From assembly GCA_051453625.1 (NCBI GenBank), contig JBOZIK010000001.1, forward strand, positions 47,150,562-47,185,183: a stretch of 34,622 nucleotides of DNA, in the 5' to 3' direction. The notes under the pieces were generated by a model that saw nothing but the letters and a program-made list of their open reading frames with translations, was not told the origin of the DNA and did not search any database. How positions within the stretch are numbered: position 1 is the stretch's first letter; each line of letters begins with the position of its first letter. This DNA is from Welwitschia mirabilis (lineage: Eukaryota). Below are positions 330 to 23,361 of the stretch, in pieces. The translations under genes were made by a program, and so were the position numbers.

Positions 330-903
330 ATCAGTGAAGGATGGCACCTGAAACCGAGATGCCCAGGTGACAAAGAAGAGTAGATTAACAGCAGAAAACA
401 TGGGCGTACCTGCAAGAAGGGATCCGTGGCTCTGTACAGACTATAATTATAAAGCCGTGCATAATTTGTCACTGATTGAGCCAATGACTGGAAATTTTCT
501 GACTTTAAATTGATGTCCAAAGTGATTTCTGAAAGGAGGAATCCAAAAGTTTGCAGACTTTGGCAAGCAGACTCAGAGACGGAGAAGAAATGAAAGTTGC
601 GTCTTCAGCGCCTACACGTCCATGCTGGAACAATTCCACTTCTGCTTCCATTGTGTAATCGCCGAAGTGCATGAAATGTTGCAGAATCCTCTGGACACAG
701 TTAACATCATATAGTGTTTCCACTCTGTAAAAATAATTAGGGATAAGTAAATCGTCTACGGTTGCTTTATCCAGTCGCATTCTAATCCATCTCTCAATGT
801 CATTTATGCTGTTCTTTGAAGCATTTAAAATGAGGGCCCTTTAGAGTAGAGTAAACAGGAATTTCGTTAGAAGCATGAAATTCTTTTCAAAAGGAACTTG
901 AAC
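330..903 (-). pseudogene. NPH3-domain (NPH3/RPT2-like, NRL family) gene fragment, disabled
   Basis: Minus strand reads VPFEKNFMLLTKFLFTLL*RALILNAS..IERWIRMRLDKATVDDLLIPNY..ETLYDVNCVQRILQHF...VCKLLDS/ then EITLDINLKSENFQSLAQSVTNYAR..SLYRA..FLQ, matching the NPH3 domain pattern. There is an in-frame TAA at 841-843 and a 1-nt frameshift near 531-538. A GT donor at 409-408 and AG near 349-348 precede CHPSL (cf. the AHPxL motif). Confidence 0.9.
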
Positions 904-1502: not shown

Positions 1503-1770
1503 TGTCAAAATGAAATCGATTAAATTCAGTCAAACGTAGTCAACAAACACCACAACTTATTCAAACTAGTTAGAGTTAGTCAAAATCAGTCAAATCTAGT
1601 CAAACTATCAAAACGATAGTCAAAATTAGTCAAAATGAGTCAAATGATATCAGTTAACATAAGTCCAACTTAGTTAAACATAATCAAACATAGTCAAATT
1701 CAGACAACTTCAGTCAAGCTAGGTCAAGTCATTAGGTTTAGCTTAAACTCATTTAAATCATCGTCAAACC
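1503..1770 (-). repeat. ~10-bp periodic (A)GTCAA array (TTGAC W-box cores on the minus strand)
   Basis: About 13 GTCAA cores counted by eye, many spaced 10 nt apart (e.g. agtcaaaatc-agtcaaatct-agtcaaa). Confidence 0.9.
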
Positions 1771-1843
1771 ATCAAAGTCACCTATCATCGCATAACATTA
1801 GAACTAATCCACCATTTACAGAAAACACAAAATCTCGTAAACA

Positions 1844-4680
1844 CTCTTCATTTGCTTCTAATACATAAGTACATATTTTAATAATTTTAAAAGAGGTAAT
1901 GATATTATTGAATCTTCTAAAACTTTTGTTAAATATTATATGTCCCTTTTAATTTTTAGATGTTCTATTTATTTACTTCTCATTGAAAAAGGTAGAGGAT
2001 TTGTTGATGTATCAACTACTGCTTCCTTCCCTATATTTATTCCTTCATCAACTAGAGAGCTGCTCAAATTTGTTTTCTTTTCTTAGTCTTCATTTATCAC
2101 CATCTGTTTTTCAGATTTAGTAGTCATTACTTTACTTGTTATTTTCCTTGAATCTAATTAAGGTTAAGTAGGAATTTTTCCTGCTTTCTTCTCTATCTCC
2201 AATTTTTCTTTCATATCTTTTGGACCTTTGTTTCTCCAATTCCTATAATAATCATATTTCTCTTCTGACTTACCTTCCTATTTCCTACTTTAGTAAGGAT
2301 ATGATGTTTTTCCCCCTCGCTTACTTGAGGTTAATTTCCTATATTTAAATCTACTCTATTAATATCTAACCAATGAATAAATTTCTTCATCTAGGAATAT
2401 TCTGTCCTTTATGATTATCTTCTCCACAATGTTCGCATTCAAATCCTTCTTCTGCTTTAAAGTATTATACAACTAATTGATCAAAGTTTTCCACCATACT
2501 ATCAATCAATTTTTTAGCTACTTCTTCTATAAGATTGATATGCTTTGAACTATACACACTACCATCTGCTTTTGGGGTAAATGCTTCATTTGTTCTTTTC
2601 TTCTTTTTACTTTCTTACCTCCATCTTTGACTCATGTTATAAAACTGAGTAATAGCTTCTCCTAGCTCTTCAATATTCTTTGTTTTGATGCTTCCTCTAC
2701 ATAGTAAGTCTAATTCCTTCAAAGTTTGACTCTGTAATCCTCTAGGTAAAGCTCTGACTCATTCTCTAGCTATATTAGGACATTTAACTAATAGTATGTT
2801 ATATTTATCCATGAACTTATCAAACCTTTCATTATATTTCAATTTAATATTCAAAATTTGTTCTCTTAAATCTTTAACTATCCTCATGGGGTTGAAATTT
2901 AGCAAAGCAAGCTTTCTTAAGAATTCCCCTATGAAATAAAAGTATGATTAGGATGTCTAGGATAGCATAACTAAGAATCCCCTTTCAAAGTAAAAGGAAA
3001 ATAGCTCAGAAAATCAGATTCTTAAACAAGATAACTTACTTTGCAAAAGGAATCTAATAAACTTAAATGGAGTAAAGGTTCTTCTAAATTCTTACCCTCA
3101 AAACTAGGTGTTGATGTTATATTTATATTTCTCACTTTTTCTATGTGTTCTAAAGCTATAAGNNNNNNNNNNNNNNNNNNNNNNNNNNNNNNNNNNNNNN
3201 NNNNNNNNNNNNNNNNNNNNNNNNNNNNNNNNNNNNNNNNNNNNNNNNNNNNNNNNNNNNNNTTAAAAGTGGGTATTGATGTTATATTTATATTTCTCAC
3301 CTTTTCTAGGTATTCTAAGGTTATAGGATTAATAGAACTTAATTCTTCTAGCTAATGAGTGTCATAATTCAGATGTCTTGAATCTCCATCATATTTAAAA
3401 TAGAATCCTACTATAAATTTCTTTTTTGGTTTATTTATCATAGCTCTTTGGGAAGATCCTTCTTGAGTGATAGGTGATTTGAGAAGAATATGCAACCGAT
3501 GTTCTATTTCACTCATTAATTTAGGAAAGATTTGTTCTTTCACAGTCTTTTCAATAGTGGTTTCATCCATACTAAAACCTTCCTCTTCTATTTCCATTTT
3601 AATCTTACTCCCAGTGTGCTCATCCAAATTATATTTGTTAGGGTTTTTAACAAACTTGCCTCTCTCACCCGTCATTTTCCTTGATTATCTTGTTGAATTA
3701 TTAGACTTCTTCATCTCTACTAATTGGCTTTAGGATATCCCTCTTCAAAATGATAAAAGCTTATATTATGAAATAAATACAGAAGATACTAATAAATTAT
3801 ACTAAAAAATGTAGAAAATTATGATGCTATTAACCTGAAATAAGCTTAAACCATTAAATAAAAATCAAAGATTTACTAAAGACGTAATTGAAACCACTAG
3901 CGCTTTAATTATTTAGCTCAAAATGCATCATCAAGATAAACTCATGATGAAATTACTTGAACTAATCAGGTTGATAATTGATAAGTTTACTCTATATATA
4001 CATTACGGGGAATGAAGGAAATGGAAAAACATAATAGAAGTTTCACTAAATGCTGAACAGTATTTCTAATTATTCTAATTCATTATCTAAACAAACAAGA
4101 GTAAGTAAAAGAGAATATTACTTTTTTAAGTAATAAAACATGTTCATAATACTTCAAAAGTATTAACTTTGCAACTTTATATTAAAATACCAAAACATCA
4201 CACAAAAATATACTAATAAGTTTGTGTTTTCCTTTGCAGGTAATACTGGGACATTAAAGATAATGCTACATCTTTTTTAGGATGTCTAAAACTTTCCTTT
4301 GATCTCTTGCTTAATTCTATTTCTAGAGATTTTTTACTAAAAGATCCCTCCCCTTCATGGTGATTCTCTTCTTATACTTTTAGCTCCTTTATGTTTTGCC
4401 ATTTCCTTTCTTTGCTCCTGAAGGATAGGTTTATGGCTGAACTTATTGTTGTCTTTCTGCCACCTTGGTCTTCTCTCTCATCCTCATGTCAAATGGCATT
4501 TTGTACCTCTAATACAATGATGCAATAAATATATGCTGACCTACTAATCTATTAACTAGCTAGTATATTAACCTACATACTAAAGAAAAAATATTGAATA
4601 CCATCTAGAATATATAATTATAAGAATAAAAACATTTTATTAATAAGATAGATTTACATCATTATCTTTACTTATTAATC
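1844..4680 (-). mobile_element. Decayed Ty3/gypsy element: gag, leader and probable LTR remnant
   Basis: Minus strand shows PSFEGKNLEEPLLHL (gag N-terminal motif, ~3110-3060) and a retrotransposon-gag-like KDLREQILNIKLK..FDKFMDKY (~2880-2800). A knuckle CEHCGEDNH lies at ~2440-2410 and a gag-protease linker VLEDSIISLPLLKLLK at ~1925-1875. Many stops are present. Confidence 0.75.
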
Positions 4681-10029: not shown

Positions 10030-11460
10030 TATCATCAAACTTATGGATGCAGGAATAAGATATGCCATTTCTAATAGTGAATTGGTTAGGCCTCTTACTA
10101 TAAAGGATGAAAAGCAATGAGTCTATATTAAATTTAGAAAGCTTAATAATTTTATTAAAAAATATCATTATTCCTTATCCTTTCTTGATCAAATGCTTGA
10201 TTAAATTCAAGGCCATTCATACTATTATTTTCTTGATGGGTATAGCGAATACAACCAAGTATGTATAGCTAATGAAGATTAATAAAAGATAGACTTTAAT
10301 TCTCCTTTTGGTATAGTTTCTTTTATAAGAATACCCTTTGATTTGTGAAATTCCCCAGGAAACTTTTAATAAGCCATGATGGGTAACTTTTCTAATATGA
10401 TTTAGGAGTCTATTGAGATCTTCATGCATGATGTTTCTATATTTTGTTATTCTTTGAACAAACATTTCATAGATTAGAAAAAGTCCTTAATCATTACACC
10501 AAATGTGGTCTTCATCTTAGCTAGGGGAAAAAAATCCAATTTGTTGTGAGAGATGAGATTGTATTGGAACATCATATCTCTCATAAAAAAATTAAAATAA
10601 ACCTAAAAAAAATCGATAGCACTAAGAACCCTTCCCTCTTATTAATATCAAATAAGTTTGATCTTTTTTCAAACATACTAGGTTTTATAGGAGATTCATT
10701 AAAGATTATGCAAAGATATGTAAACCTCTTCACTCTCTTTTGGGAGAAAAGAAGCAAAGTTCTATTTGGAATAAGAAATGTTAACATGTGTTTTACCTCT
10801 AGACTTATAGATTGTGTCCCTGATTTGAATAAATAATTTAAACTCGTGAGTAATGCTAGCAAGGTTACTGTAACACCCCAACTTTAATTACCCTAATTAA
10901 CCATAATATTTTTTTTTATATAGTTATTAACTATCATGCACAANNNNNNNNNNNNNNNNNNNNNNNNNNNNNNNNNNNNNNNNNNNNNNNNNNNNNNNNN
11001 NNNNNNNNNNNNNNNNNNNNNNNNNNNNNNNNNNNNNNNNNNNTTTCATTAAAATTAATATCAAAATGTTTTACATAGTTTAGAAACCCTATTAATTAAA
11101 GCTTACAAAATGTGGGTTATGACAGTTACTATAGGTGGTGTCTTAGAAGAAAAGCATGAAAAAGGTTAGAAATTGACTTGCTATTAGTAAAACCCTTTCT
11201 GAAGTTAAACTTAATTACATTGCCTCTAAAAAGAAAATGCTTTCTATCATATTTTACCTTGATAAACTTCAATACTACTTTCTCGATTTCCATAGTAATG
11301 TATATACTGATTGTGCTACCATTAGATATTTTATGATCAAGACGAAGTCAACTGTAATATTAATTATATGGATGCTTTTGATGTAAGAATTTAACCTTAT
11401 CATCATGGTTAAAGAAGTTAAACATAATTACATTGCAGATCATCTTTCAAGCCTACCTAA
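10030..11460 (+). pseudogene. gypsy reverse transcriptase and RNase H remnant
   Basis: FLDGYSEYNQV (cf. LDGYSGYNQI) at ~10230, FMHDV at the YxDD position (~10420) and IVLEHHIS. RNase H shows NASK|VTIGGVL, LNY..KKKML, VYTDCATIRY and NYIADHLS. Confidence 0.9.
10869..11124. mobile_element. LTR insertion (solo LTR or gap-collapsed element) with 5-bp TSD
   Basis: TGTAACACCCC ... GGGTTATGACA termini with TSD GTTAC at 10864-10868 and 11125-11129. It contains a 100-N gap, so the true size is unknown. Confidence 0.85.
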
Positions 11461-11739
11461 TAATCATAAGGTCCTATATTTTTTCTTGACTTTACTACCT
11501 ATGATTTCTTTCTAAATGAATAATTATTTGTTATTAAAGATATTTACTATATTTATTATTATCATCCTCCTTCATGTTATGCTAATATAGTAAACTTTAT
11601 TGTTTCCATGAAAACCTTTCAACATTGGACTAAAACTAGAAAAAAGTTTTTCTTCATTTAATAAGAGAATATGAATGAAATGAGTCATATGTCTATCATG
11701 GATGCAAGGATTAAATCATGCATAAGTATATGATGGAAT

Positions 11740-14510
11740 GGAAATAATGTGATATCCTTACCCTTTATCATGGTGATGCATGTGAAGGCCACTCTAGTGG
11801 CCAAAAGACCACTATGAAAATCCTACATGCAGGTTTCTATTGGTCTTTTTTAAAGAATCTTTTACTTTTGCTACAAGATGTGATGCTTGTCAATAATTTG
11901 GTAGCCTTTTAGAATCTCCACACATATCCCTCCAACCTATCCTAGAATGTAAACCTTTTGATTATTAGAGTATAAACTTTATAGGCCCTCTCAAACCATC
12001 CCCTTGTAATAGAAATTATATCTTTATGACCATTGATTATGTGCTAAAATGGGTAGAAGCCATTCCTACTACCACAGATGATGTCAAAATTGCATGTTAT
12101 TTTCTTAGATCTAATATTTTTCATAAGTTTTTTTTTTAAGAAATGATAAATGTCTATTATACTATAATATAAGATAAGAGGAAAAACAACATGGCTTAAA
12201 AGCTATTTTTTTAAGCACGGTAGAAATCTTGCTGATAATCAAAGCCTCAAACATCAACATCTAATTTAGTCAACCCTCATTCTCAATTCCAATAAGAAAT
12301 ATGCTCTAAAGTAGCATACCCCAACAGGTTTACAACAAAATGGTATTCATAAGACTCCAAAGGTGGGAAATTTTTTATCCAATCCCAAGGCCTCTACAAT
12401 TTTAGGAAATTCATTAGAAGGAGAGTTGAGGTTTCTTATGATCTTGAATGTCCTCCTTTATCTCCTTTTCAGTTTTACCTTTTCTAGTATTCATTTAGAT
12501 TTTTTATCTATCTATCTAGTTTTTGAGTTTTGCTAATTGTTGGTGTATCTAAAATGCACAACTCTGCACAATTATTATTATCTAATTTCTCATGTGCCAT
12601 TTTCATTTATGATAGCTATTTTAATTTGGAAGAGCGAAATTGCATATTATAGATGCCCTCTGTGTGCTACTTTTCTTGTTTGGCTATTACTCATTCATTT
12701 CCTATTTTATTTTCCTACATCTATTCTAGTTTTTCATCTAATAGAATATTATATTTATTTGATTAAAATATTGGGTCATTGTTTGGAACTAAAGCTGGTT
12801 TCCTTTTATGATCTTTTTTTTAAACTTCTTACCAGTCATTTTTTCCCACTTTTTTATTTTTCATTTTTTCTTCTATCATATGTCCATTTTCACTACACTT
12901 CAAATATTGCAATGAAATATTTTAGATTTCTAGATTTACCAATTCCCCTCATATAGTATCCAAGATTAGATTTTTTACTTTGAAGCTATCCACTTTTATG
13001 TAAACACATATTCTAGTCATTGCCATTTTGGCCATTAAATTCATATTCTTATCAAGTTCAACAAACTCTCCTAATATATCTTTAAGTTATTTTAAGAAAT
13101 TTAGATACCATATTTCTAGGTGAAAGTTTGAGAGATAAATCCAAATTGGGATCTTTTAAAAAATGGTGGATTTGTTAAGAATAAAAGGGAACCATTTAGT
13201 TAGGAGTAAACCTCTACCGCCAAAAAAATAGGGCCCTCCTGCTAAAACCTTATTCATTTCTTCTTTAAACTCAAAAATAAAATATGACAATCCATCTCTA
13301 AGAGGGATTACCCTACAGAAACTTCTAATCACACCATAGATGCACTTTTTTAATAAATGAGAGCCCTCCTAAGGATTGAAATTTGTCAATGAGGCTATTT
13401 CTAAAATGAACCTCTAGATGCTTAGAGTAGTGGATGGGCATCTTTTCATGAATGATATCTCCTTTACACTTAAAACTAAAATTTAAGTAAGAAAAACTTT
13501 GGTGTTTTCTTCCTACCACTAAATCCACATAAGATTTGGTACCTAAAGATTCTGCCACAGTTGGAGAACGGAGTCTTGCTTTTAATAGCACATTGAAGAC
13601 GCACTGCACGAAGGGGAAAAAAACCCTACAGAATTAAAAACCATCTGCAGAAAGCCTATAAGAAAGCACTTGTGTTAAGAAGCCATGAAAGAGATAATAC
13701 TTTGACATGTGAAAGATGCACCAAAGGAAAAATTGCCTCTTTGTCTACTGCCACGCATCCTAAAATCCAAACACTAGCTTCACTGCTCTGCTTCCTCCTT
13801 GAGCTATCTCCCCATTAGGCATGTTTATATTTTCCATAAGTTTAACTTTTCTAAAGCTTTGAACAATGACTAAGGTTCTTATTTCATTAACAAGGTTCTT
13901 AGGAAACTTCTCCTTTCTATAGGAGTGGAACACAAAATAACTAATGCCCATTATCCACAACAAATGGTCAAGTTAAAAATGCTAATAAGAAAATCAAGAA
14001 AATAATCCAAAATCTTATCTTTAAGAATAAGAAATCTTAATCTTTAAAACCCAATGGTATTCTTTAGGCTTACTATACAACTTAGTATAATTCACTTGGT
14101 TTTGTTCATTATGAACTATTGTATGATAAATCTTATGTCCTTCCTATTGATGTATGCTATAAGACCATATATCAACTTTATGTCATTGATTTCAATGAAA
14201 ATATTCAACATATTTTATTCCAACTTTAACATCTTAATGAGAAACGAATTCATTCATCCTTACGAGACTCATATAAAAAGCCTAAGCCAACTTTCACCAT
14301 GATAAAATTCCTATACCTAAACCATTTTAACCTAGTTAATTGGTGCTTTTATTAAATACTCAAGTGCTTTTACTTCATAAAAAGTTAACTTATAAATGGA
14401 AAAGTCCTTCTCTTATACAAAAAGTGCATCTCAATGGATTTGTTGCAATTCTTGACTTAAAATCTCATGAAAAGTTAAAAGTAAATGGACAATAATTGAA
14501 GTTACTAATC
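11740..14510 (+). pseudogene. gypsy integrase remnant (split by the LINE derivative at 12131-13826)
   Basis: HHCC finger HGDACEGH..KILHAGFYW..CDACQ, then INFIGP, TIDYVLKWVEAIP and NIFHKF. It resumes after the insertion with D*GSYF..GVEHKITNAHYPQ and continues to the VNGQ tail. Confidence 0.9.
12131..13826 (-). mobile_element. Non-LTR (L1-clade LINE) derivative with decayed ORF1, poly(A) and 17-bp TSD
   Basis: TSD ATATTTT(T/C)CATAAGTTT at 12114-12130 and 13827-13843, with a poly-T run at the left junction. Minus strand shows KSYVDLV, NSLIDKF, GPYFFGGRGLLLTKWFP, ILGEFVELD..TRICVYI (DUF4283-type ORF1) and a knuckle relic YLKCSENGH at ~12910-12880. Confidence 0.85.
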
Positions 14511-15920
14511 ACCCATTATTGTCATTATATTATGCATATAATTGAAGTAATTAACTTAGATAATTTTCTTACCTAAGATAAGACTCTTCCCTTTGACATT
14601 GTCTAAATGCTTTCCTACTTGGATTCGTTGGTTAAGTAATCTTACTAATTGATCATCTATTGACTTTAAGTCAAAAATCTTAATAGAGTTATTAAGATGT
14701 ACTTTTTCTACAAGATAAGAACATAGCCATTTAGAAGCTAATTTATTATAAAGTAAATGCACTAGAGTATTAAACAAAAGTACCTATTAGCTTGGTTAAA
14801 AGATCTTAGGTATAATCTTTTTATCATGGTGAAATTTCACTTTGGTGTTTTGGATGAGTTGCCTATGGATAACATGAATTTATTTCTCATCAAGGTGAAA
14901 TTTTACCTTGCCCTTAGTTATCCCATCTTTTTCACTTTAGTAAGGCTATCCACCTATATCATTTGAAAAACCACCTAGATGATGAACTTTACCTCTTTAT
15001 CTGACTTCTTTTCCCTAATTTGAAATTTTGAAACATCTTTTAATCTCTAAAAATCACATTTTAGTGAATTCTGGTTCTTGTATTCTTTACTGATTTAAAA
15101 AAAGGGTAAAAAACTTTGTTGTCCATCATGTTATCTGGATGACAAAGTCAGCTAATCATTTTTCAAAGAATAAAATAACAAAGCATTTTTATAGTACTCA
15201 TTATAGTCTCTTATTTAAACAACCAGGAAGATGATCACTATAACCCATGAGTTATACCTTTTTCTCTTCCATTTGTTCTTATTTTCACTTATTATTTTAT
15301 CTCAAAAAATTTGAATCTTGATGCCTAGAGATCGTACTGTCATACACCTATCTCTTGGCATTAGATTTATATCAGATCTACCATTTAAATTCCAAGTTTT
15401 ATTGAGTTTTGTAGACATGAGGTGAGTTTCCATTCTATGTTACTTTTGCTTATTTCTCATATTTTTAGGCCTTTTTTAATGTAATTTTTGCATGGAAGCA
15501 TTAGCTTTCCAAGCTTAGCATTTTAGTCTAAATGGTATTTGATTTTACTAAGTATTTCATGAGATATAAACATTTTTACATTTCATAAGGTATAACAAGG
15601 GGTTTTCCTTCAAATTTGAATTGCTCTTTTATCTTCTAGTGAAGCTTAGCATATTTATAGTCAAAATTATAAGCTTAATGGACTAAACATTTCTACTATC
15701 ATGAAAGTTTGTTTTAGGCCTTTAATTTTTCTTTTATAGTGATTTTAGACCCCATATTACATTATTACATTTTCAACTCTTTTCCTTCAATGTTTTATAG
15801 AATTTGAGAAAAAATTGGTTTACTTGATGCAAAATAGGAGTAATCATTAGTTATTGTGGGTAAACATTCTAGCTTTAGAGAGTATACTTTTCAATTTTTG
15901 GACATATTTTTAACCCATGC

Positions 15921-17732: not shown

Positions 17733-18070
17733 CCCTTTTGAGTATTCTTGCAAGTTGTTACATAAATTTTTAATTTAAGTTTTATGAGTTTAGATTGATA
17801 ATTTAAAGCTAGCATTAGAATTCTTTAAAGATGATTTTTTTCCTTTCATGATAAATGATCTTCTAAGTTGTCTAGATGCAAAATCAAACTACAATCATCT
17901 CAATTTGAAACATTTTTTAATGGTCTTAAAAAAAAAATAATATCCCCTTTTGAGTATTCCTGCAAGTTGTTTCATGAATTTTAAATTTAAGTTTTATGGG
18001 TTTAGATTGATAATTTAAAGATAGCATTAGAATTCTTCAAATATGATTTTTTTCCCTTTCATGATAAATG
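17733..18070 (+). repeat. ~125-bp direct repeat pair
   Basis: CCCTTTTGAGTATTC..TTTCATGATAAATG occurs at 17733-17857 and 17945-18070 with scattered substitutions. Confidence 0.9.
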
Positions 18071-18886
18071 GCCTCATTTAATAAGAGTAAGACCAATTTG
18101 TTGTCTAATTTACTAAAAATGAAGTTCAACATGTCATCCAATAAAGGAAATTTTTCATGTGAGATTTTTTAGCTTCTAAATCTAGTCACATCATGTCCAT
18201 ATTTTGTCAATGTAAGGAAGAACACAATAGAGAGGCATTTTCCAATAAAACTCTTCCAACAGTAGTACTAAAGCCATGCCTCATAAAACTTTGGAAGTTC
18301 CACCATAATAAGATTGGTAGGTTTTCGTGTGCAAAATGAAATTGTCATTGATATAAAATTTTCCCCTTGTGCTCTTATACCCTGATTTGAAAAAGAGGAA
18401 TCAACACAAACTCCAAATTTGATAATAGCTAGTCTAAGATAATAGTAATGCATTAGAATGTTGCTGACGTGCTTGATAAGAAGACCTTAAAAACTACAAA
18501 CCCTTGCTTATGCCCCTTGCACTAAAACTTGGATCACTCTTAAGACCCAATAGAAATAAATACAAAAAATTAAATCCTATAAGAATATAAATAACTAAGG
18601 AATTTTTAGAGGTTCATTTAAAACCAATAAATTATAGAATAGTAGTTTTCATTTTGAGATATCTAAAATTTTTATCAAGATATATCTAAGGATAACAATC
18701 AAGTAAAAGTTCTTCAGAATGTCGATAATAGATTATCCATTTCACTTTGAGAAAACGTGTGAATAAAGCCAAATACTAACTTCACAAAAGGTGATACATG
18801 CAAAAGGAATGTATCGGGAAATGGTAAACTTAGGTGGATATCATGTTCGGAATCAGATGAGAAAAAAACTCAGCCATGCACTAGAA

Positions 18887-19570
18887 TTTGGATTAAACAA
18901 AGAATGGTGAATTGATAGGGCTATTATGTTATTTAAGATAGAAATAAATCAAATTTAAATAATTATGAATTGATTGTAATTAGCAATTATTTTATAAAAC
19001 TTTTGGGAACCATAATTGAAACAAAGATTAATACATAGATATAGGAAGACAAATTTTTAGGAATGTCTATAACAAAATCATTTTACAAAAGATTATCTCA
19101 TTAACACATTTTATTGACAAAAATAAAATTCAAATAAAAGTATTCATTTGGATTAAACAAAGAATGGTCAATTGATAAGGCTATTATGTTGTTTAAGATA
19201 GAAAATAAATTGAATTTAAATAATTATAGATTGATTGTAATTAGCAAATATTTTACAAAACTTTTGGAAACCATAATTGAAACAAAGATTAATAGATAGG
19301 TATAAGGAGACAAGTTTCCAGTAATGTCTCAAGTAAGCTTATAACAATATCATTTTACAAAAGATTATCTTATTAACACATTTTATTGACAAAAATAAAA
19401 TTCAAATAAAAGTATTCATTTGGATTAAACAAAGAATGGTGAATTGATAGGGCTATTATGTTGTTCAAGATAGAAAATAAATCGATTTTAAATAATTATA
19501 GATTAATTGTAATTAACAATTATTTTACAAAATTTTTGGGAACCATAATTGAGACAAAGATTAATAGATA
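18887..19570 (+). repeat. Tandem repeat, ~260-272-bp unit, ~2.6 copies, just upstream of the gene
   Basis: Units start TTTGGATTAAACAAAGAATGG at 18887, 19147 and 19419. The copies are diverged and no gap is involved. Confidence 0.95.
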
Positions 19571-19797
19571 TTACATATTATGAATTTTATTTTAATTTCA
19601 ATAGTAGACAATTACTTGTACATGGCAAAAAAAACAGACTAAAACGACGGTGGATCACGGCAGAAGCAATGAATATGCGATACTTCGGCGGTGGCACAGG
19701 CAGGAAAACCTTGTTAAACCTCGCTAAACCTCTTTTCGTTTTGTTCGGTTGATCGCAAAGAGAAAGCAAGCAAAAAAGTTACAAGCCAAAAGGAGCG

Positions 19798-19942
19798 ATG
19801 GCCGGCGCGCAGAGGGATTGGAGAGTCTTTGCTCGTCCTATACTGGAGACCGCCCTCAAAGATCACTGCAGTCGTCCCAAAGTTTTTCAGCCGCTCTTTC
19901 TTCACGGTCCTCGCGGCGCAGGCAAACGCACTCTTCTTCAAA
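19798..19942 (+). CDS. EMB1381: EMB1381-like P-loop protein, exon 1
   Basis: ATG at 19798 gives MAGAQRDWRVFARPILETALKDHCSRPKVFQPLFLHGPRGAGKRTLLQ, then A|GTAATT (phase 1). It resembles the recalled angiosperm W.IIPRPLLETVL..QPLILHGPRGVGKT. The gene symbol is from memory. Confidence 0.85.
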
Positions 19943-20094
19943 GTAATTCCCAATTCCTGTTCTTTCTTTAAGTGTTTTTTTTTTTTTTAATACAGTATTT
20001 GATTCTCAAAAAGCACATTGAATATAGAAAATATTGATTTATAGACGGTTTGTAATTTGATAGAGGATCCTTCTGTCATCCTGTCTTTTCGCAG

Positions 20095-20825
20095 GGCTGT
20101 TGGAGGAATGGAAGAGGCCTCCTCATGCATTCGAGCACATAGATTTTCGGCCGTTGGATTCCATGCCTCCTTGGACATTGTTGGAAACCCCAAGCGATTT
20201 GCGGACACTTAGGTCTCGGCTTGAGACGAGTCTTGAAGCGCTTACGAGAAAAGGAGTGGAGCTTGGATGCATCGGAGGAGAGCAGGTGTACGTTACTCTT
20301 AAAAAATGGCATGGCATAGATGGAGCGTTGCAGCACTTCTTAAAAAATCGTGTAGGTATCTCTGCATTGGCAAAAGTCTCTTCTTCTAAACGCGACGGGA
20401 CTCTCTTGTTGTGGAAAAAGGCGTTAAGGTCCCTGTCTGAGTTGAGTGCAAAGGGAAATAGCGACTCTAAAAGCATCTTCCTTCCTGTTAAGAGCTGGGA
20501 GGACGAGTATATCAGGCGTCTCAATGCTTTGGCTGCATGGAATGATGCCTTGCAATCAGGCAGTGGTTCTCCTTACAGATCTTTGCTGAAGGCCAGAATA
20601 TGGGATTCGAAAACAAATGAGGAACTCAATTATTTTAAGGAGTCATTGCTTTCTCTGCATTTGGCGAAGGAGCTGCTTTCTATACACGAACAATGGAGGG
20701 CTAATGCTATTGAGCATGTGAAGAAAACGGGAAGTTTTTCGAGAATGCTGGCACACACGGCAACAAATTGGCCGTCGCTTCTTATCGAATTACTTTCTTG
20801 CGGTGTGGCAGAAGGATACTTTCAG
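20095..20825 (+). CDS. EMB1381: EMB1381-like protein, exon 2
   Basis: Acceptor TTTTCGCAG|, 731 nt open, reading RLLEEWKRPPH...KWHG...LAKELL..WRANAI..NWPSLLIELLS..GYFQ, then donor CAG|GTAGAC (phase 0). Confidence 0.92.
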
Positions 20826-21298
20826 GTAGACACACATGCCCTTGTCCCGAAATGGATATAAGAGAAATTTGCTCATATAAAGATGTTTTTCTTTGAATAT
20901 GTTGCTCATGAAATGGATAAGCTACGGGGAAAGGAAACGATTTGAATGCAATTCTTTCAGGAATGTCGAATATCATTTGAAAGGCATCATTCATCAATTC
21001 AAATACGCACTTGCCTTCATGGCCAGTTCCTTCAGTGTCTTTTTGCTTTTTGGACTTGGATTCTTTGAACTTATTTCATCCATCTCGACTAGTGTTGGTC
21101 CTTCGATCTTTGGTGAGGGCATTTGTATGCACATTTCTACAAAACTTATACCAATCCATCAAGATATTATGATTCTTGAGAAATATTATTTCAAAAGTTC
21201 AAATAGTGCAATGGAATTCTCTACAAGAAGTCATAGGTCAGCCATCAAATTTGACGTAATTGAGGTGTGATTGTTTGAATAAAATATTTAGTCCCATT

Positions 21299-21587: not shown

Positions 21588-22385
21588 TAGTGTTGCAAGA
21601 CACCAAGTCTCTATGAGTACTCCCCGAGTTACAAGTCTCTGAAGACTCATGAGTCAGTTTGCTTGAGACTCGCCGAGTTCAGGTCTGACCGCAAAACTTG
21701 CAAGTCTCTGTGAGCTGGCGAGTCTCATTGAGTCAAGTGGAGGGAAAAATATTAGATTAAAAAATGCCTTTTTAAAGGTATTTGGTGGGCGCCAGCAACG
21801 TTTTGGACTATAAGGAACCCTTTCTCCTCTATTCTAACACAGATTTCCCTCATTTTGGATCGGGAAAGAAGATTTTTGGAGAGTATTGGTATAGGGGTGT
21901 TCAACTTTTGCTTTGTACTTTAGCTTTCCATCGTGAAAATTATAAAATATTGCCTACGGTGATGATTTACAAAACTATTCTATAAAACATTTCAATGCAT
22001 CATATATTTTACATTTNNNNNNNNNNNNNNNNNNNNNNNNNNNNNNNNNNNNNNNNNNNNNNNNNNNNNNNNNNNNNNNNNNNNNNNNNNNNNNNNNNNN
22101 NNNNNNNNNNNNNNNNTATAAAATATTGCCTACGGTGATGATTTACAAAACTATTCTATAAAACATGTCAATGCATCATATATTTTACATTTAAATGTTT
22201 TAATGTAGTATAGAAGTCTAAGAATGTTATTGAAATCCTTAAAACTACTTAAAATGCTAAGAAATAACTCTTCAGTGACTCTTTTTGACTTCCAAGTCTT
22301 TGCCGAGTTGGCTGCCTAGTCGAGCCAAGTCACGAGTTGTTCCCCCTAGTTGACTCGGGTGGTGAGGATGAGTCTTGCAACACTG
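21588..22385. mobile_element. hAT-type MITE with GACTC/GAGTC subterminal repeats
   Basis: TIRs TAGTGTTGCAAGAC and GTCTTGCAACACTG (13/14 match). The 8-bp flanks CTAGATTG and CTAATTTA match at 5/8, a possible decayed TSD. The element contains a gap. Confidence 0.8.
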
Positions 22386-22469: not shown

Positions 22470-22931
22470 CATTGTTGCAAGACTCGGACTCGCCACCTGA
22501 CTTGGCTAGGGAAAAAACTCGTGACTCGGCTCGACTCGGGGGCTGATTCGGCACNNNNNNNNNNNNNNNNNNNNNNNNNNNNNNNNNNNNNNNNNNNNNN
22601 NNNNNNNNNNNNNNNNNNNNNNNNNNNNNNNNNNNNNNNNNNNNNNNNNNNNNNCACCTGACTTGGCTAGGGAAAAAACTCGTGACTCGGCTCGACTCGG
22701 GGGCTGATTCGGCACAGACTCAGGAGTCAAAAAGAGTCACTAGAGAGTTTTATGTACAGATGCACCAAGACTCGCCAAAAACTTGCCCAATCTCACCAAG
22801 ACTCGTTGAGACTCGTAAGTTTTGTGAGCTGACTCGGACTCGGCGAGTTTCTACCCACTCGACTTGCGAGTTCAAAAAAACTAGGGACTCGGAGAGTACT
22901 CGCCGAGAGCCGGAGAGTCTTGAGAAAATTG
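22470..22931. mobile_element. Second, inverted and shorter copy of the same MITE family
   Basis: It begins CATTGTTGCAAGACTC. Its left part is the reverse complement of 22270-22385 and its right part resembles the reverse complement of 21590-21730. Confidence 0.8.
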
Positions 22932-23019
22932 TAAGATCTTGGAAATGTCACATATGGAAAATCACCCAAAAAATGGATGAGTGGATAGAAGCAATTGGAA
23001 AGAACAAGAAACTGTTATG

Positions 23020-23361
23020 TGTTTACGAGATTTTTTATATCCCGTAAACGGTGGATTAGTTCTAATGTTACTCGATGATAGGTAGTTTTGGTGGTTTGAC
23101 GGCTATTTAAAACGAATTTAAGCTAAACCTAATGACTTGACCTGGTTTGACTAAGGTTGACTGAATTTGACTATATTTGATTGTGTTTGACTACCTCAGA
23201 CTTATGTTGACTGAAGTAATTTGACTCATTTTGATTGACTTTGACCATCATTTTGACCGTTTGACGAGGTTCGACTGGTTTTGATTAACTTTGACTGATT
23301 TTGACTAGCGACTAGTTTGACTAACTTTGACTGTTATGAGATTTTTTATCTCTCGTAAATG
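23020..23361 (+). mobile_element. Short or internally deleted solo LTR carrying a TTGAC array, 5-bp TSD
   Basis: TGTTTACGAGA...TCTCGTAAATG with TSD TTATG at 23015-23019 and 23362-23366. It is homologous to the reverse complement of ~1510-1843. Confidence 0.8.

What the first reader, a model, noticed from the sequence alone, without database searches (positions are those of the whole stretch)
12114..13843. ORF1-only LINE with poly(A) and 17-bp TSD: possible plant analogue of HAL1 (half-L1)
Seen: a 1.7-kb insert bounded by a 17-bp TSD and a poly(A) tail. It has a short 5' leader, a decayed ORF1 (DUF4283-like region, knuckle, basic tail) and ~250 bp of 3' sequence, with no recognisable endonuclease or RT. 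Known: TPRT normally truncates LINEs at the 5' end, leaving ORF2 3' parts, so keeping ORF1 while lacking ORF2 is the opposite pattern. ORF1-only HAL1 families are described mainly in mammals. Inference: a non-autonomous ORF1-only family mobilised in trans.
Basis: partly seen in the sequence, partly recalled or inferred. Interest (0 to 1): 0.75.

Follow-up and report, generated by a model that had tools for sequence, protein, structure and literature searches.

The report
Plant half-LINE family lacking copying enzyme
This is a dead copy of a plant LINE-1 jumping gene that kept its RNA-packaging gene but lost nearly all of its copying enzyme; diverged sister copies share the same cut, so it likely belongs to a parasite family that borrowed the enzyme from intact relatives, a habit known in animals and a slime mould that our literature searches did not find described in plants.

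Summary
The insertion is real. It is a 1,696-nt minus-strand element inside a decayed LTR-retrotransposon integrase, with a 16/17 TSD, a short poly(A) and a TTT/AA nick site. Its boundaries match empty-site relatives. ORF1 carries DUF4283 (E 3.5e-15).

One correction: ORF2 is not wholly absent. Its first ~21 codons follow a TAATG stop/start overlap, then join a ~210-nt tail near 12350. This is an internal-deletion derivative.

Public reads show a repeated family, roughly 100-2,000 stub-bearing copies. Five of 16 listed contigs, 15-18% divergent from this copy, bridge the same junction, which argues strongly against a private deletion. Not shown: TSDs of other copies, any record linking the ORF1 core to the junction, selection on ORF1, and the helper L1.

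Best reading (0.7): a non-autonomous, ORF1-retaining L1 family mobilised in trans. It works like mammalian HAL1, HeT-A, Ag-Sponge and TRE5-A.2 but is not HAL1 by descent. Eight literature searches found no plant example; Repbase and the HAL1 paper could not be checked. The scan noted this design before on animal and fungal DNA, and none of the 14 notes listed was from a plant.

The parts
12114..12130 (.). Target-site duplication, copy at the element's 3' end
   Evidence: 16/17 identical to 13827-13843; empty-site arithmetic
12128..12137 (-). Poly(A) tail, A10, of which 3 A lie inside the TSD
   Evidence: sequence; relatives' alignments end at 12128-12137 (table 8)
12138..12350 (-). 3' tail, high copy, shared with a second population that has a different sequence upstream
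   Evidence: depth 205-440 in raw reads; loose ends at 12350 in 75 contigs of X1 and 75 of X4; no folding signal, z 0.27
12348..12414 (-). ORF2 stub: ATG at 12414-12412, endonuclease start motif at 12410-12384, about 21 codons, with two premature stops in this copy; deletion junction near 12350
   Evidence: in L018 and L002 the same motif starts Exo_endo_phos
12412..12416 (-). TAATG overlap of the likely ORF1 stop and the ORF2 start
   Evidence: sequence; a TAATG/TGATG overlap stands in 10 of 28 metagenome L1 loci that have ATG 9 nt before the motif
12414..13633 (-). Decayed ORF1 (frameshifted; 6 stops in 181 core codons); start codon not located
   Evidence: ORF1 HMM iE 1.5e-19 at 13302-12799
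13003..13314 (-). DUF4283 (PF14111)
   Evidence: E 3.5e-15, 56.3 bits
12860..12915 (-). Degenerate zinc-knuckle position (approximate)
   Evidence: alignment A1 keeps one Cys and Gly-His; no Pfam hit
13634..13826 (-). 5' leader or ORF1 N-terminus, poorly covered by relatives
   Evidence: raw-read depth 5-13 over 13582-13824
13827..13843 (.). Target-site duplication, copy at the 5' end; followed by AA, giving a TTT/AA nick site on the + strand
   Evidence: contigs of this locus span it with 0 and 3 differences in 247 nt (records 8, 15)
10525..14460 (+). Host: decayed LTR-retrotransposon RNase H-integrase region split by the insert (limits approximate)
   Evidence: RT_RNaseH E 3.5e-10; 8 of 8 PDB hits of the left flank are integrases, weak, E 0.03-0.1; empty-site joints

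Best explanation
This is a dead copy of a plant L1 that kept ORF1, the first ~21 codons of ORF2 and a poly(A) tail, and it likely belongs to a non-autonomous family that was copied by the ORF2 enzyme of intact L1s. SHOWN: the anatomy; insertion into an integrase with a TSD and a T-rich nick site; high copy number; the same stub-to-tail junction in other, diverged sequences. INFERRED, step 1: an ancestral L1 lost nearly all of ORF2 in one internal deletion, possibly at a short microhomology around the junction. Step 2: the shortened element kept its promoter and was transcribed as a ~1.7-kb polyadenylated RNA. Step 3: its own ORF1 protein coated that RNA in cis and made it a good substrate, as proposed for rat HAL1 and shown for an ORF1-only human L1 reporter. 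Step 4: a helper ORF2p nicked TTT/AA and reverse-transcribed from the poly(A). Step 5: copies then decayed (CpG observed/expected 0.17).
For: TSD, poly(A), nick site and empty-site joints. DUF4283. ORF2 stub at the canonical place after TAATG; the HMM match ends at 12348, and reads independently mark 12350 as a boundary. Five of 16 listed contigs bridge 12350 by 31 or more letters on each side with 40-57 differences (15-18%), whereas 4 listed contigs of this locus differ by 0-4 letters. Three of the five reach the poly(A) and carry 151, 782 and 596 further letters that fit nothing in the stretch. Depth does not fall across the junction (X13 381 then 352; X14 398 then 373). Parts of ORF1 are as deeply covered as the tail (13177-13257: 364 and 402), which suits a short element better than a 5'-truncated 6-kb one (inference). 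No cluster of loose ends showing the stub running on into an endonuclease is among the 24 listed.
Against: No record spans the whole element. Depth drops to 6-22 at 12529-12690, so the link between the junction and the DUF4283 core is seen only in this copy; the bridging contigs reach 12524 at most. The 5' leader has depth 5-13 only. No TSD of another copy was seen. That the unaligned letters lie beyond the poly(A) rests on my reading of record coordinates. The listed pieces are the longest of more than 23,000, which favours bridging ones, and only 24 of about 4,600 loose-end rows are shown. 75 contigs in each of two runs share the tail without the stub, and their identity is unresolved. No helper L1 and no intact ORF1 of this family were found (0 of 1,502 candidates; best relatives 23-35% identical).
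Confidence: 0.7

Rival explanations
1. Recurrent dead-end products: intact L1s repeatedly make the same shortened copy (template jump at a microhomology, or splicing), and the short copies never replicate themselves.
For: A shared junction is expected here too. Microhomology-bounded recurrent deletion is described for CR1 SIDEs (PMC6740152, passages), and spliced L1 copies exist in humans (PMC5860796, passages). A GT lies 6 nt upstream of the junction ATG.
Against: If the second population is the parental 3' end, its 30 letters before the junction hold no AG on the sense strand (read by eye table 7), so canonical splicing does not fit. Stub depth is close to tail depth, and no stub-into-endonuclease cluster is listed, so full-length parents look rarer than this model would need (weak; listing is truncated).
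Confidence: 0.13
2. The amplified unit is only the last ~400 nt (ORF1 end, stub, tail), as 5'-truncated or SINE-like copies, and the long ORF1-bearing form is rare; the ORF1 depth comes from other L1s.
For: Bridging contigs stop at 12524; depth trough at 12529-12690; very low depth on the 5' leader.
Against: At 12495 the loose ends of 56 X4 contigs resemble the window's own next letters by eye, so the trough looks like local decay of this copy. Even 5'-truncated copies need a longer transcribed source that carries the junction.
Confidence: 0.07
3. One deleted copy was amplified passively inside the surrounding LTR element or by segmental duplication.
For: The flanks are high-copy repeats too (table 2).
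Against: Six listed relatives of the flank are empty at this site. Four listed contigs stop aligning at the poly(A) (12128-12137) and do not continue into the integrase flank, which was part of the stretch laid.
Confidence: 0.04
4. Private post-insertion deletion, or a one-off prematurely polyadenylated transcript.
For: The copy is old and heavily decayed, so later deletions are plausible a priori.
Against: 5 of 16 listed contigs, 15-18% divergent, bridge the same junction, three of them from one run. The endonuclease match ends at codon 21, about 210 nt before the poly(A), and that tail also occurs behind a different upstream sequence, so it is not read-through ORF2.
Confidence: 0.04

Closest known systems
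HAL1 (half-L1) of mammals, including rat RNHAL1 (PMC5753468 and PMC2241872, passages; Bao and Jurka 2010 not held)
   Same: L1 derivative that keeps ORF1 and has lost ORF2 by deletion; multi-copy (about 7,500 HAL1 copies in rat per PMC2241872); arose several times independently in mammals
   Different: Plant DUF4283-type ORF1 rather than the mammalian Transposase_22 type, so an independent origin; this copy is dead; keeps a 21-codon ORF2 stub and the TAATG overlap; helper not identified
TRE5-A.2 of Dictyostelium (PMC3159450, passages)
   Same: Non-autonomous derivative with ORF1 and a large ORF2 deletion, efficiently mobilised in trans by the full-length partner's ORF2
   Different: TRE5-A targets tRNA genes and needs a 3' hairpin; here the target is an integrase gene, and the tail shows no folding signal (z 0.27, decayed copy)
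ORF1-present bipartite non-autonomous LINEs: HeT-A (Jockey clade) and Ag-Sponge (CR1 clade) (PMC5786205, passages)
   Same: 5' and 3' parts of a LINE with ORF1 kept; ORF1p proposed to multimerise with helper proteins
   Different: Other LINE clades and insect hosts; the passages read name no plant member
Autonomous plant L1 such as poplar Celine (PMC11288735, passages) and loci L002, L018, L020
   Same: DUF4283 ORF1, ORF2 start motif directly behind it, poly(A), TSD
   Different: They are about 6 kb with a 1,250-1,410-aa ORF2 (endonuclease and RT; zf-RVT and RNase H seen in L002 and L018); ORF1 cores in alignment A1 are only 24-26% identical to the window's
Sadhu retroposons of Arabidopsis (PMC2848041, abstract and outline)
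   Same: Non-autonomous plant retroposons with target sites consistent with LINE mobilisation
   Different: Recalled, not checked in the text: Sadhu is non-coding and not derived from L1 itself

Membership tests
Plant L1-clade LINE lineage | ORF1 with DUF4283 | tested here: met
   PF14111 E 3.5e-15, above cut-off
Plant L1-clade LINE lineage | CCHC zinc knuckle in ORF1 | tested here: inconclusive
   no Pfam hit; one Cys and Gly-His align
Plant L1-clade LINE lineage | Poly(A) end, variable TSD, T-rich nick site | tested here: met
Autonomous plant L1 | ORF2 with whole APE endonuclease and RT | tested here: not met
   only positions 1-21 match; no RT in six frames
ORF1-retaining non-autonomous LINE (HAL1-like design) | ORF1 kept, ORF2 removed by internal deletion, both ends present | tested here: met
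   whether the 5' end is complete was not established
ORF1-retaining non-autonomous LINE (HAL1-like design) | Same deletion junction in several diverged copies | tested here: met
   5 of 16 listed contigs bridge 12350 at 15-18% divergence
ORF1-retaining non-autonomous LINE (HAL1-like design) | Whole short element at independent sites, each with its own TSD | tested here: inconclusive
   3 bridging contigs end at the poly(A) with unaligned remainder; no whole copy or second TSD seen; no genome held
ORF1-retaining non-autonomous LINE (HAL1-like design) | ORF1 functional and under purifying selection in source copies | not testable with these tools
   no sequences of sister copies could be retrieved
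ORF1-retaining non-autonomous LINE (HAL1-like design) | Autonomous partner with matching 3' end | tested here: inconclusive
   75 contigs in each of two runs share the tail with another upstream sequence; 30 letters do not identify it; no partner in the window or in 33 metagenome loci
Mammalian HAL1 by descent | Mammalian L1 ORF1 (Transposase_22 type) | tested here: not met
   the only Pfam hit above cut-off in the insert is DUF4283; the window also holds a plant NPH3 exon
Spliced L1 retrocopy (SpIRE) | Deletion bounded by GT...AG | tested here: inconclusive
   GT 6 nt upstream of the junction ATG; no AG in the 30 letters of the other population, but that population may not be the parent

The most novel reading that the evidence does not exclude
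ORF1-only L1 parasites are a recurrent, overlooked class in land plants, and in this genome they outnumber their helper. Leads for this: a high-copy family here; a second tail-sharing population whose 30 visible letters weakly resemble the ORF1 end; a second ORF1 without ORF2 in the same window; and a DUF4283-RNase H fusion protein from another plant (P0069). The family may also have kept the TAATG stop/start and an in-frame mini-ORF2 of about 28 codons because re-initiating ribosomes help the RNA capture a helper ORF2p.
Probability: 0.25. Interest if true: 0.65.

Novelty: new member of a known kind. Interest (0 to 1): 0.45.

Why it matters
The half-LINE habit is described in mammals, insects and Dictyostelium. 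A high-copy plant case built on the unrelated DUF4283-type ORF1 would be another independent origin. It would support the idea that ORF1p acts in cis to make its RNA a preferred substrate. It would also give a population-genetic test of what DUF4283, a domain of unknown function, does: selection on ORF1 in elements that have no ORF2 to escort. In practice, RT-anchored LINE surveys would miss such families or file them as unknown genes. The mechanism itself is not new.

Tried and rejected
No genome is held for the window, so whole copies could not be collected. The plasmid search gave no match and was irrelevant. The word-index search with the decayed ORF1 found 0 of 1,502 candidates. The profile search returned 187 DUF4283 proteins, but 4 of the 5 alignment rows were the metagenome loci, so its ranking says little about the nearest relative. 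The exhaustive protein search never ran: the queue was full on 8 tries. No atlas look-alikes were obtained. A finer read-mapping over the junction was not obtained, so the share of reads spanning it is uncounted. Pfam did not detect the stub alone and NCBIfam found nothing in the two insert frames sent. The stub call rests on the motif test and on an HMM built from loci that were selected by that same motif, so the first nine positions match by construction. Tail folding gave no signal. Among 33 metagenome loci none showed stub plus short tail plus poly(A). L003 and L032/L033 lose the endonuclease after about 54 codons but run into unrelated sequence with no A9+ run; L004 was a chance hit (no endonuclease match). 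An SDHxP-like word at 15239 has no endonuclease HMM support and was dropped. The Ipi1_N, BD-FAE, IS481 and RnlA_toxin_N hits are below cut-off and were treated as noise. Host lineage was not resolved (best named hit 45%). No look-alike or same-genome notes in the scan.

Full report
OBSERVATION. The insert lies on the minus strand between two 17-nt repeats, 12114-12130 and 13827-13843, identical at 16 of 17 places; only one other such pair starts in 11000-15000. A T10 run at 12128-12137 is the poly(A), three bases of which belong to the TSD. The other junction reads GTTT/AA on the + strand, like the 5'-TTTT/A-3' L1 nick site given in PMC5860796 (passages). The flanks are a decayed LTR-retrotransposon pol region: RT_RNaseH upstream at E 3.5e-10, and weak integrase hits for the left flank, 8 of 8 PDB sequences at E 0.03-0.1. 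The label Ty3/gypsy is my recall from the RNase H-integrase order. Six listed contigs of relatives skip the insert. In 4 of 6 the intervening letters equal the number expected if 12131-13843 is absent; one is 1 short and one 11 short. The boundaries are therefore right, and the element is 1,696 nt. The host is a land plant (NPH3 exon, PF03000 E 1.3e-16); its lineage was not resolved.

ANATOMY. With stops read as X, one frame matches DUF4283 at 13314-13003 (E 3.5e-15), the dominant plant L1 ORF1 domain (PMC5203782, passages). The 181-codon core has 6 stops, and the ORF changes frame at least twice by eye. The knuckle is degenerate. CpG observed/expected is 0.17. At 12410-12384 the sequence matches 8 of 9 residues of a motif recalled as the plant ORF2 start; 300 shuffles reached at most 5, and the rest of the window 5. 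To test what the motif is, I scanned metagenome contigs and got 33 loci. In 32 of 33 an endonuclease HMM built from 10 of them matches from the motif on. In L018 and L002, Pfam places Exo_endo_phos position 1 at the motif, followed by RVT_1, zf-RVT and RNase H, and L018 has DUF4283 upstream. Six of these loci have an upstream ORF1 that matches the window's at E 7e-16 to 5e-9. Ten of the 28 loci with ATG 9 nt before the motif have a TAATG/TGATG overlap, and the window has TAATG at 12416-12412. In this copy the ATG is out of frame with the motif; 30 of 325 and 32 of 305 reads carry two more letters there (table 4). An HMM of 22 distinct ORF2 N-termini matches positions 1-21 at 12410-12348 and nothing further, and no RT is found. 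The stub frame runs on across the junction to a stop five to six codons later.

IS IT A FAMILY? No genome was held. One read-mapping at 80% likeness was obtained, on 4 of the 18 runs listed: two raw-read runs, about 1 in 100 read, and two contig sets, 54-57 in 100 read. Of 9,388 and 10,026 reads laid, only 3 and 5 were 99% alike and 51 each were 95-99% alike, against a depth of 352 and 373 over the stub. That brackets stub-bearing copies at about 110-2,000, with a floor of 54-70 from the thinnest bin; the figure includes any full-length L1s. Depth does not fall across the junction (381 to 352; 398 to 373). Five of 16 listed contigs bridge 12350 by 31 or more letters each side: X1 records 1, 3, 4 and X4 records 10, 11, with 40-57 differences (15-18%). 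Record 2 has too few letters on one side and is not counted. Four listed contigs that belong to this locus differ by 0-4 letters, so the five are other sequences. Three come from one run, so at least two further loci are involved even if two are alleles. Records 1, 3 and 10 end at the poly(A) with 151, 782 and 596 unaligned letters. I read these as new flanks because records 4 and 11 both clip at 12524 in the way that reading predicts; this is an inference about the table's coordinates.

LIMITS. No record spans the element. Bridging contigs reach only about 110 nt into the ORF1 end. Depth is 6-22 at 12529-12690 and 5-13 on the 5' leader. The table shows the longest pieces of more than 23,000. 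A second population, 75 contigs in X1 and 75 in X4, shares the tail but leaves at 12350 into another sequence (agreement 0.67). It may be the helper's ORF2 end or 3' UTR. Its 30 letters also resemble the window's ORF1 end weakly by eye (four identical codons' worth of residues in low-complexity DNA), so it may be a sister ORF1-only form; one X4 contig joins 12332 to 12412, i.e. lacks the stub (table 5c). No loose-end cluster of the opposite kind, stub running into endonuclease, is among the 24 rows listed, whose smallest entries are 51 and 45 contigs and 262 and 276 reads. That hints at rare full-length parents but is not a count. A finer mapping of the junction was not obtained.

MECHANISM. 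Most likely (0.7) an L1 lost nearly all of ORF2 once, and the shortened element multiplied using helper ORF2p. The TPRT marks and the shared junction are shown; transcription of the short form, a cis role of its ORF1p and the helper are inferred. The analogy has experimental footing elsewhere. An ORF1-only human L1 reporter needs a functional ORF1p and an ORF2p driver in trans (10.1101/2024.05.03.592410, passages). TRE5-A.2 is mobilised by TRE5-A.1 (PMC3159450, passages). Many plant L1s are proposed to recognise poly(A) loosely (PMC3747384, passages), which fits a tail with no folding signal (weak, decayed copy). The main rival (0.13) is recurrent dead-end deletion or splicing from intact L1s. 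Canonical splicing is disfavoured only if the second population is the parent, because its 30 letters hold no sense-strand AG. The other rivals are a short amplified 3' unit (0.07), passive duplication (0.04) and a private or one-off event (0.04).

COMPARISON AND NOVELTY. It works like HAL1 (PMC5753468, PMC2241872; passages) and the ORF1-present bipartite LINEs HeT-A and Ag-Sponge (PMC5786205, passages). It is not HAL1 by descent, since the ORF1 type differs. PMC6740152 (passages) calls internally deleted non-LTR elements rare and lists only insects and trypanosomes. A land-plant TE review (PMC9033089, passages) lists LARDs, TRIMs, SMARTs, MITEs and SINEs as non-autonomous types; the passages seen name no ORF1-only LINE. 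Searches listed no plant ORF1-only L1 family; I saw most of those papers only as listings. PMC11288735 and PMC10625261 (passages) describe full-length or mutated plant LINEs only. Bao and Jurka 2010 was not held. Heitkam 2014, Repbase and all supplements were not seen, and any of them may hold a plant case. The scan has noted this design in rays, camelids, octopus, a shark and a fungus (14 distinct notes, none from a plant); these are unchecked notes and are not used as support.

VERDICT. New member of a known kind, apparently in a new kingdom as far as these searches go; interest 0.45.

Noticed in passing
window ~17200-16070 (-): A second, more decayed L1 ORF1 (69% over 80 nt to the first, E 5.6e-7; DUF4283 E 0.028, below cut-off). 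No endonuclease or RT follows it, and no convincing poly(A) or TSD was found; a microsatellite lies just downstream. It may be another ORF1-only element or a 3'-deleted relic.
   Followed up: partly
P0069: A 488-aa protein with DUF4283 fused in frame to RVT_3 (RNase H-like), 12 member sequences, on a 2,320-nt contig: looks like another internally deleted plant L1 product.
   Followed up: no
window 12350 (table 7): 75 contigs in each of two runs share the 3' tail but carry a different upstream sequence: helper L1 end or sister ORF1-only subfamily.
   Followed up: partly
window 508-840 (-): Exon of an NPH3-family gene (PF03000 E 1.3e-16); best named relative only 45% identical.
   Followed up: partly
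window 14256-14464 and 14662-14870: Inverted repeat with 209-nt arms, 75% complementary, 197 nt apart, in the 3' part of the LTR element.
   Followed up: no
window 18886-19601 and 17733-18058: Tandem arrays of about 260-272-nt units (three copies) and 212-nt units (two copies).
   Followed up: no
window 1563-1857 and 23006-23301: Two copies, in opposite orientation, of a ~300-nt repeat built on a 10-nt TAGTCAAAAT-like unit.
   Followed up: no
window 19717-21267: GC-richer island (0.43 at 20001-21000) with several long open frames on both strands (up to 265 aa); the two scanned have no Pfam hit. Possibly organelle-derived (a guess).
   Followed up: partly
window 21941-22192 and 22494-22715: Near-identical 76-nt and 61-nt repeats on both sides of 100-N gaps: probably assembly overlap artefacts.
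   Followed up: no
L003, L032, L033: L1 copies from other plants whose endonuclease stops after about 54 codons and runs into unrelated DNA; not the same structure.
   Followed up: yes
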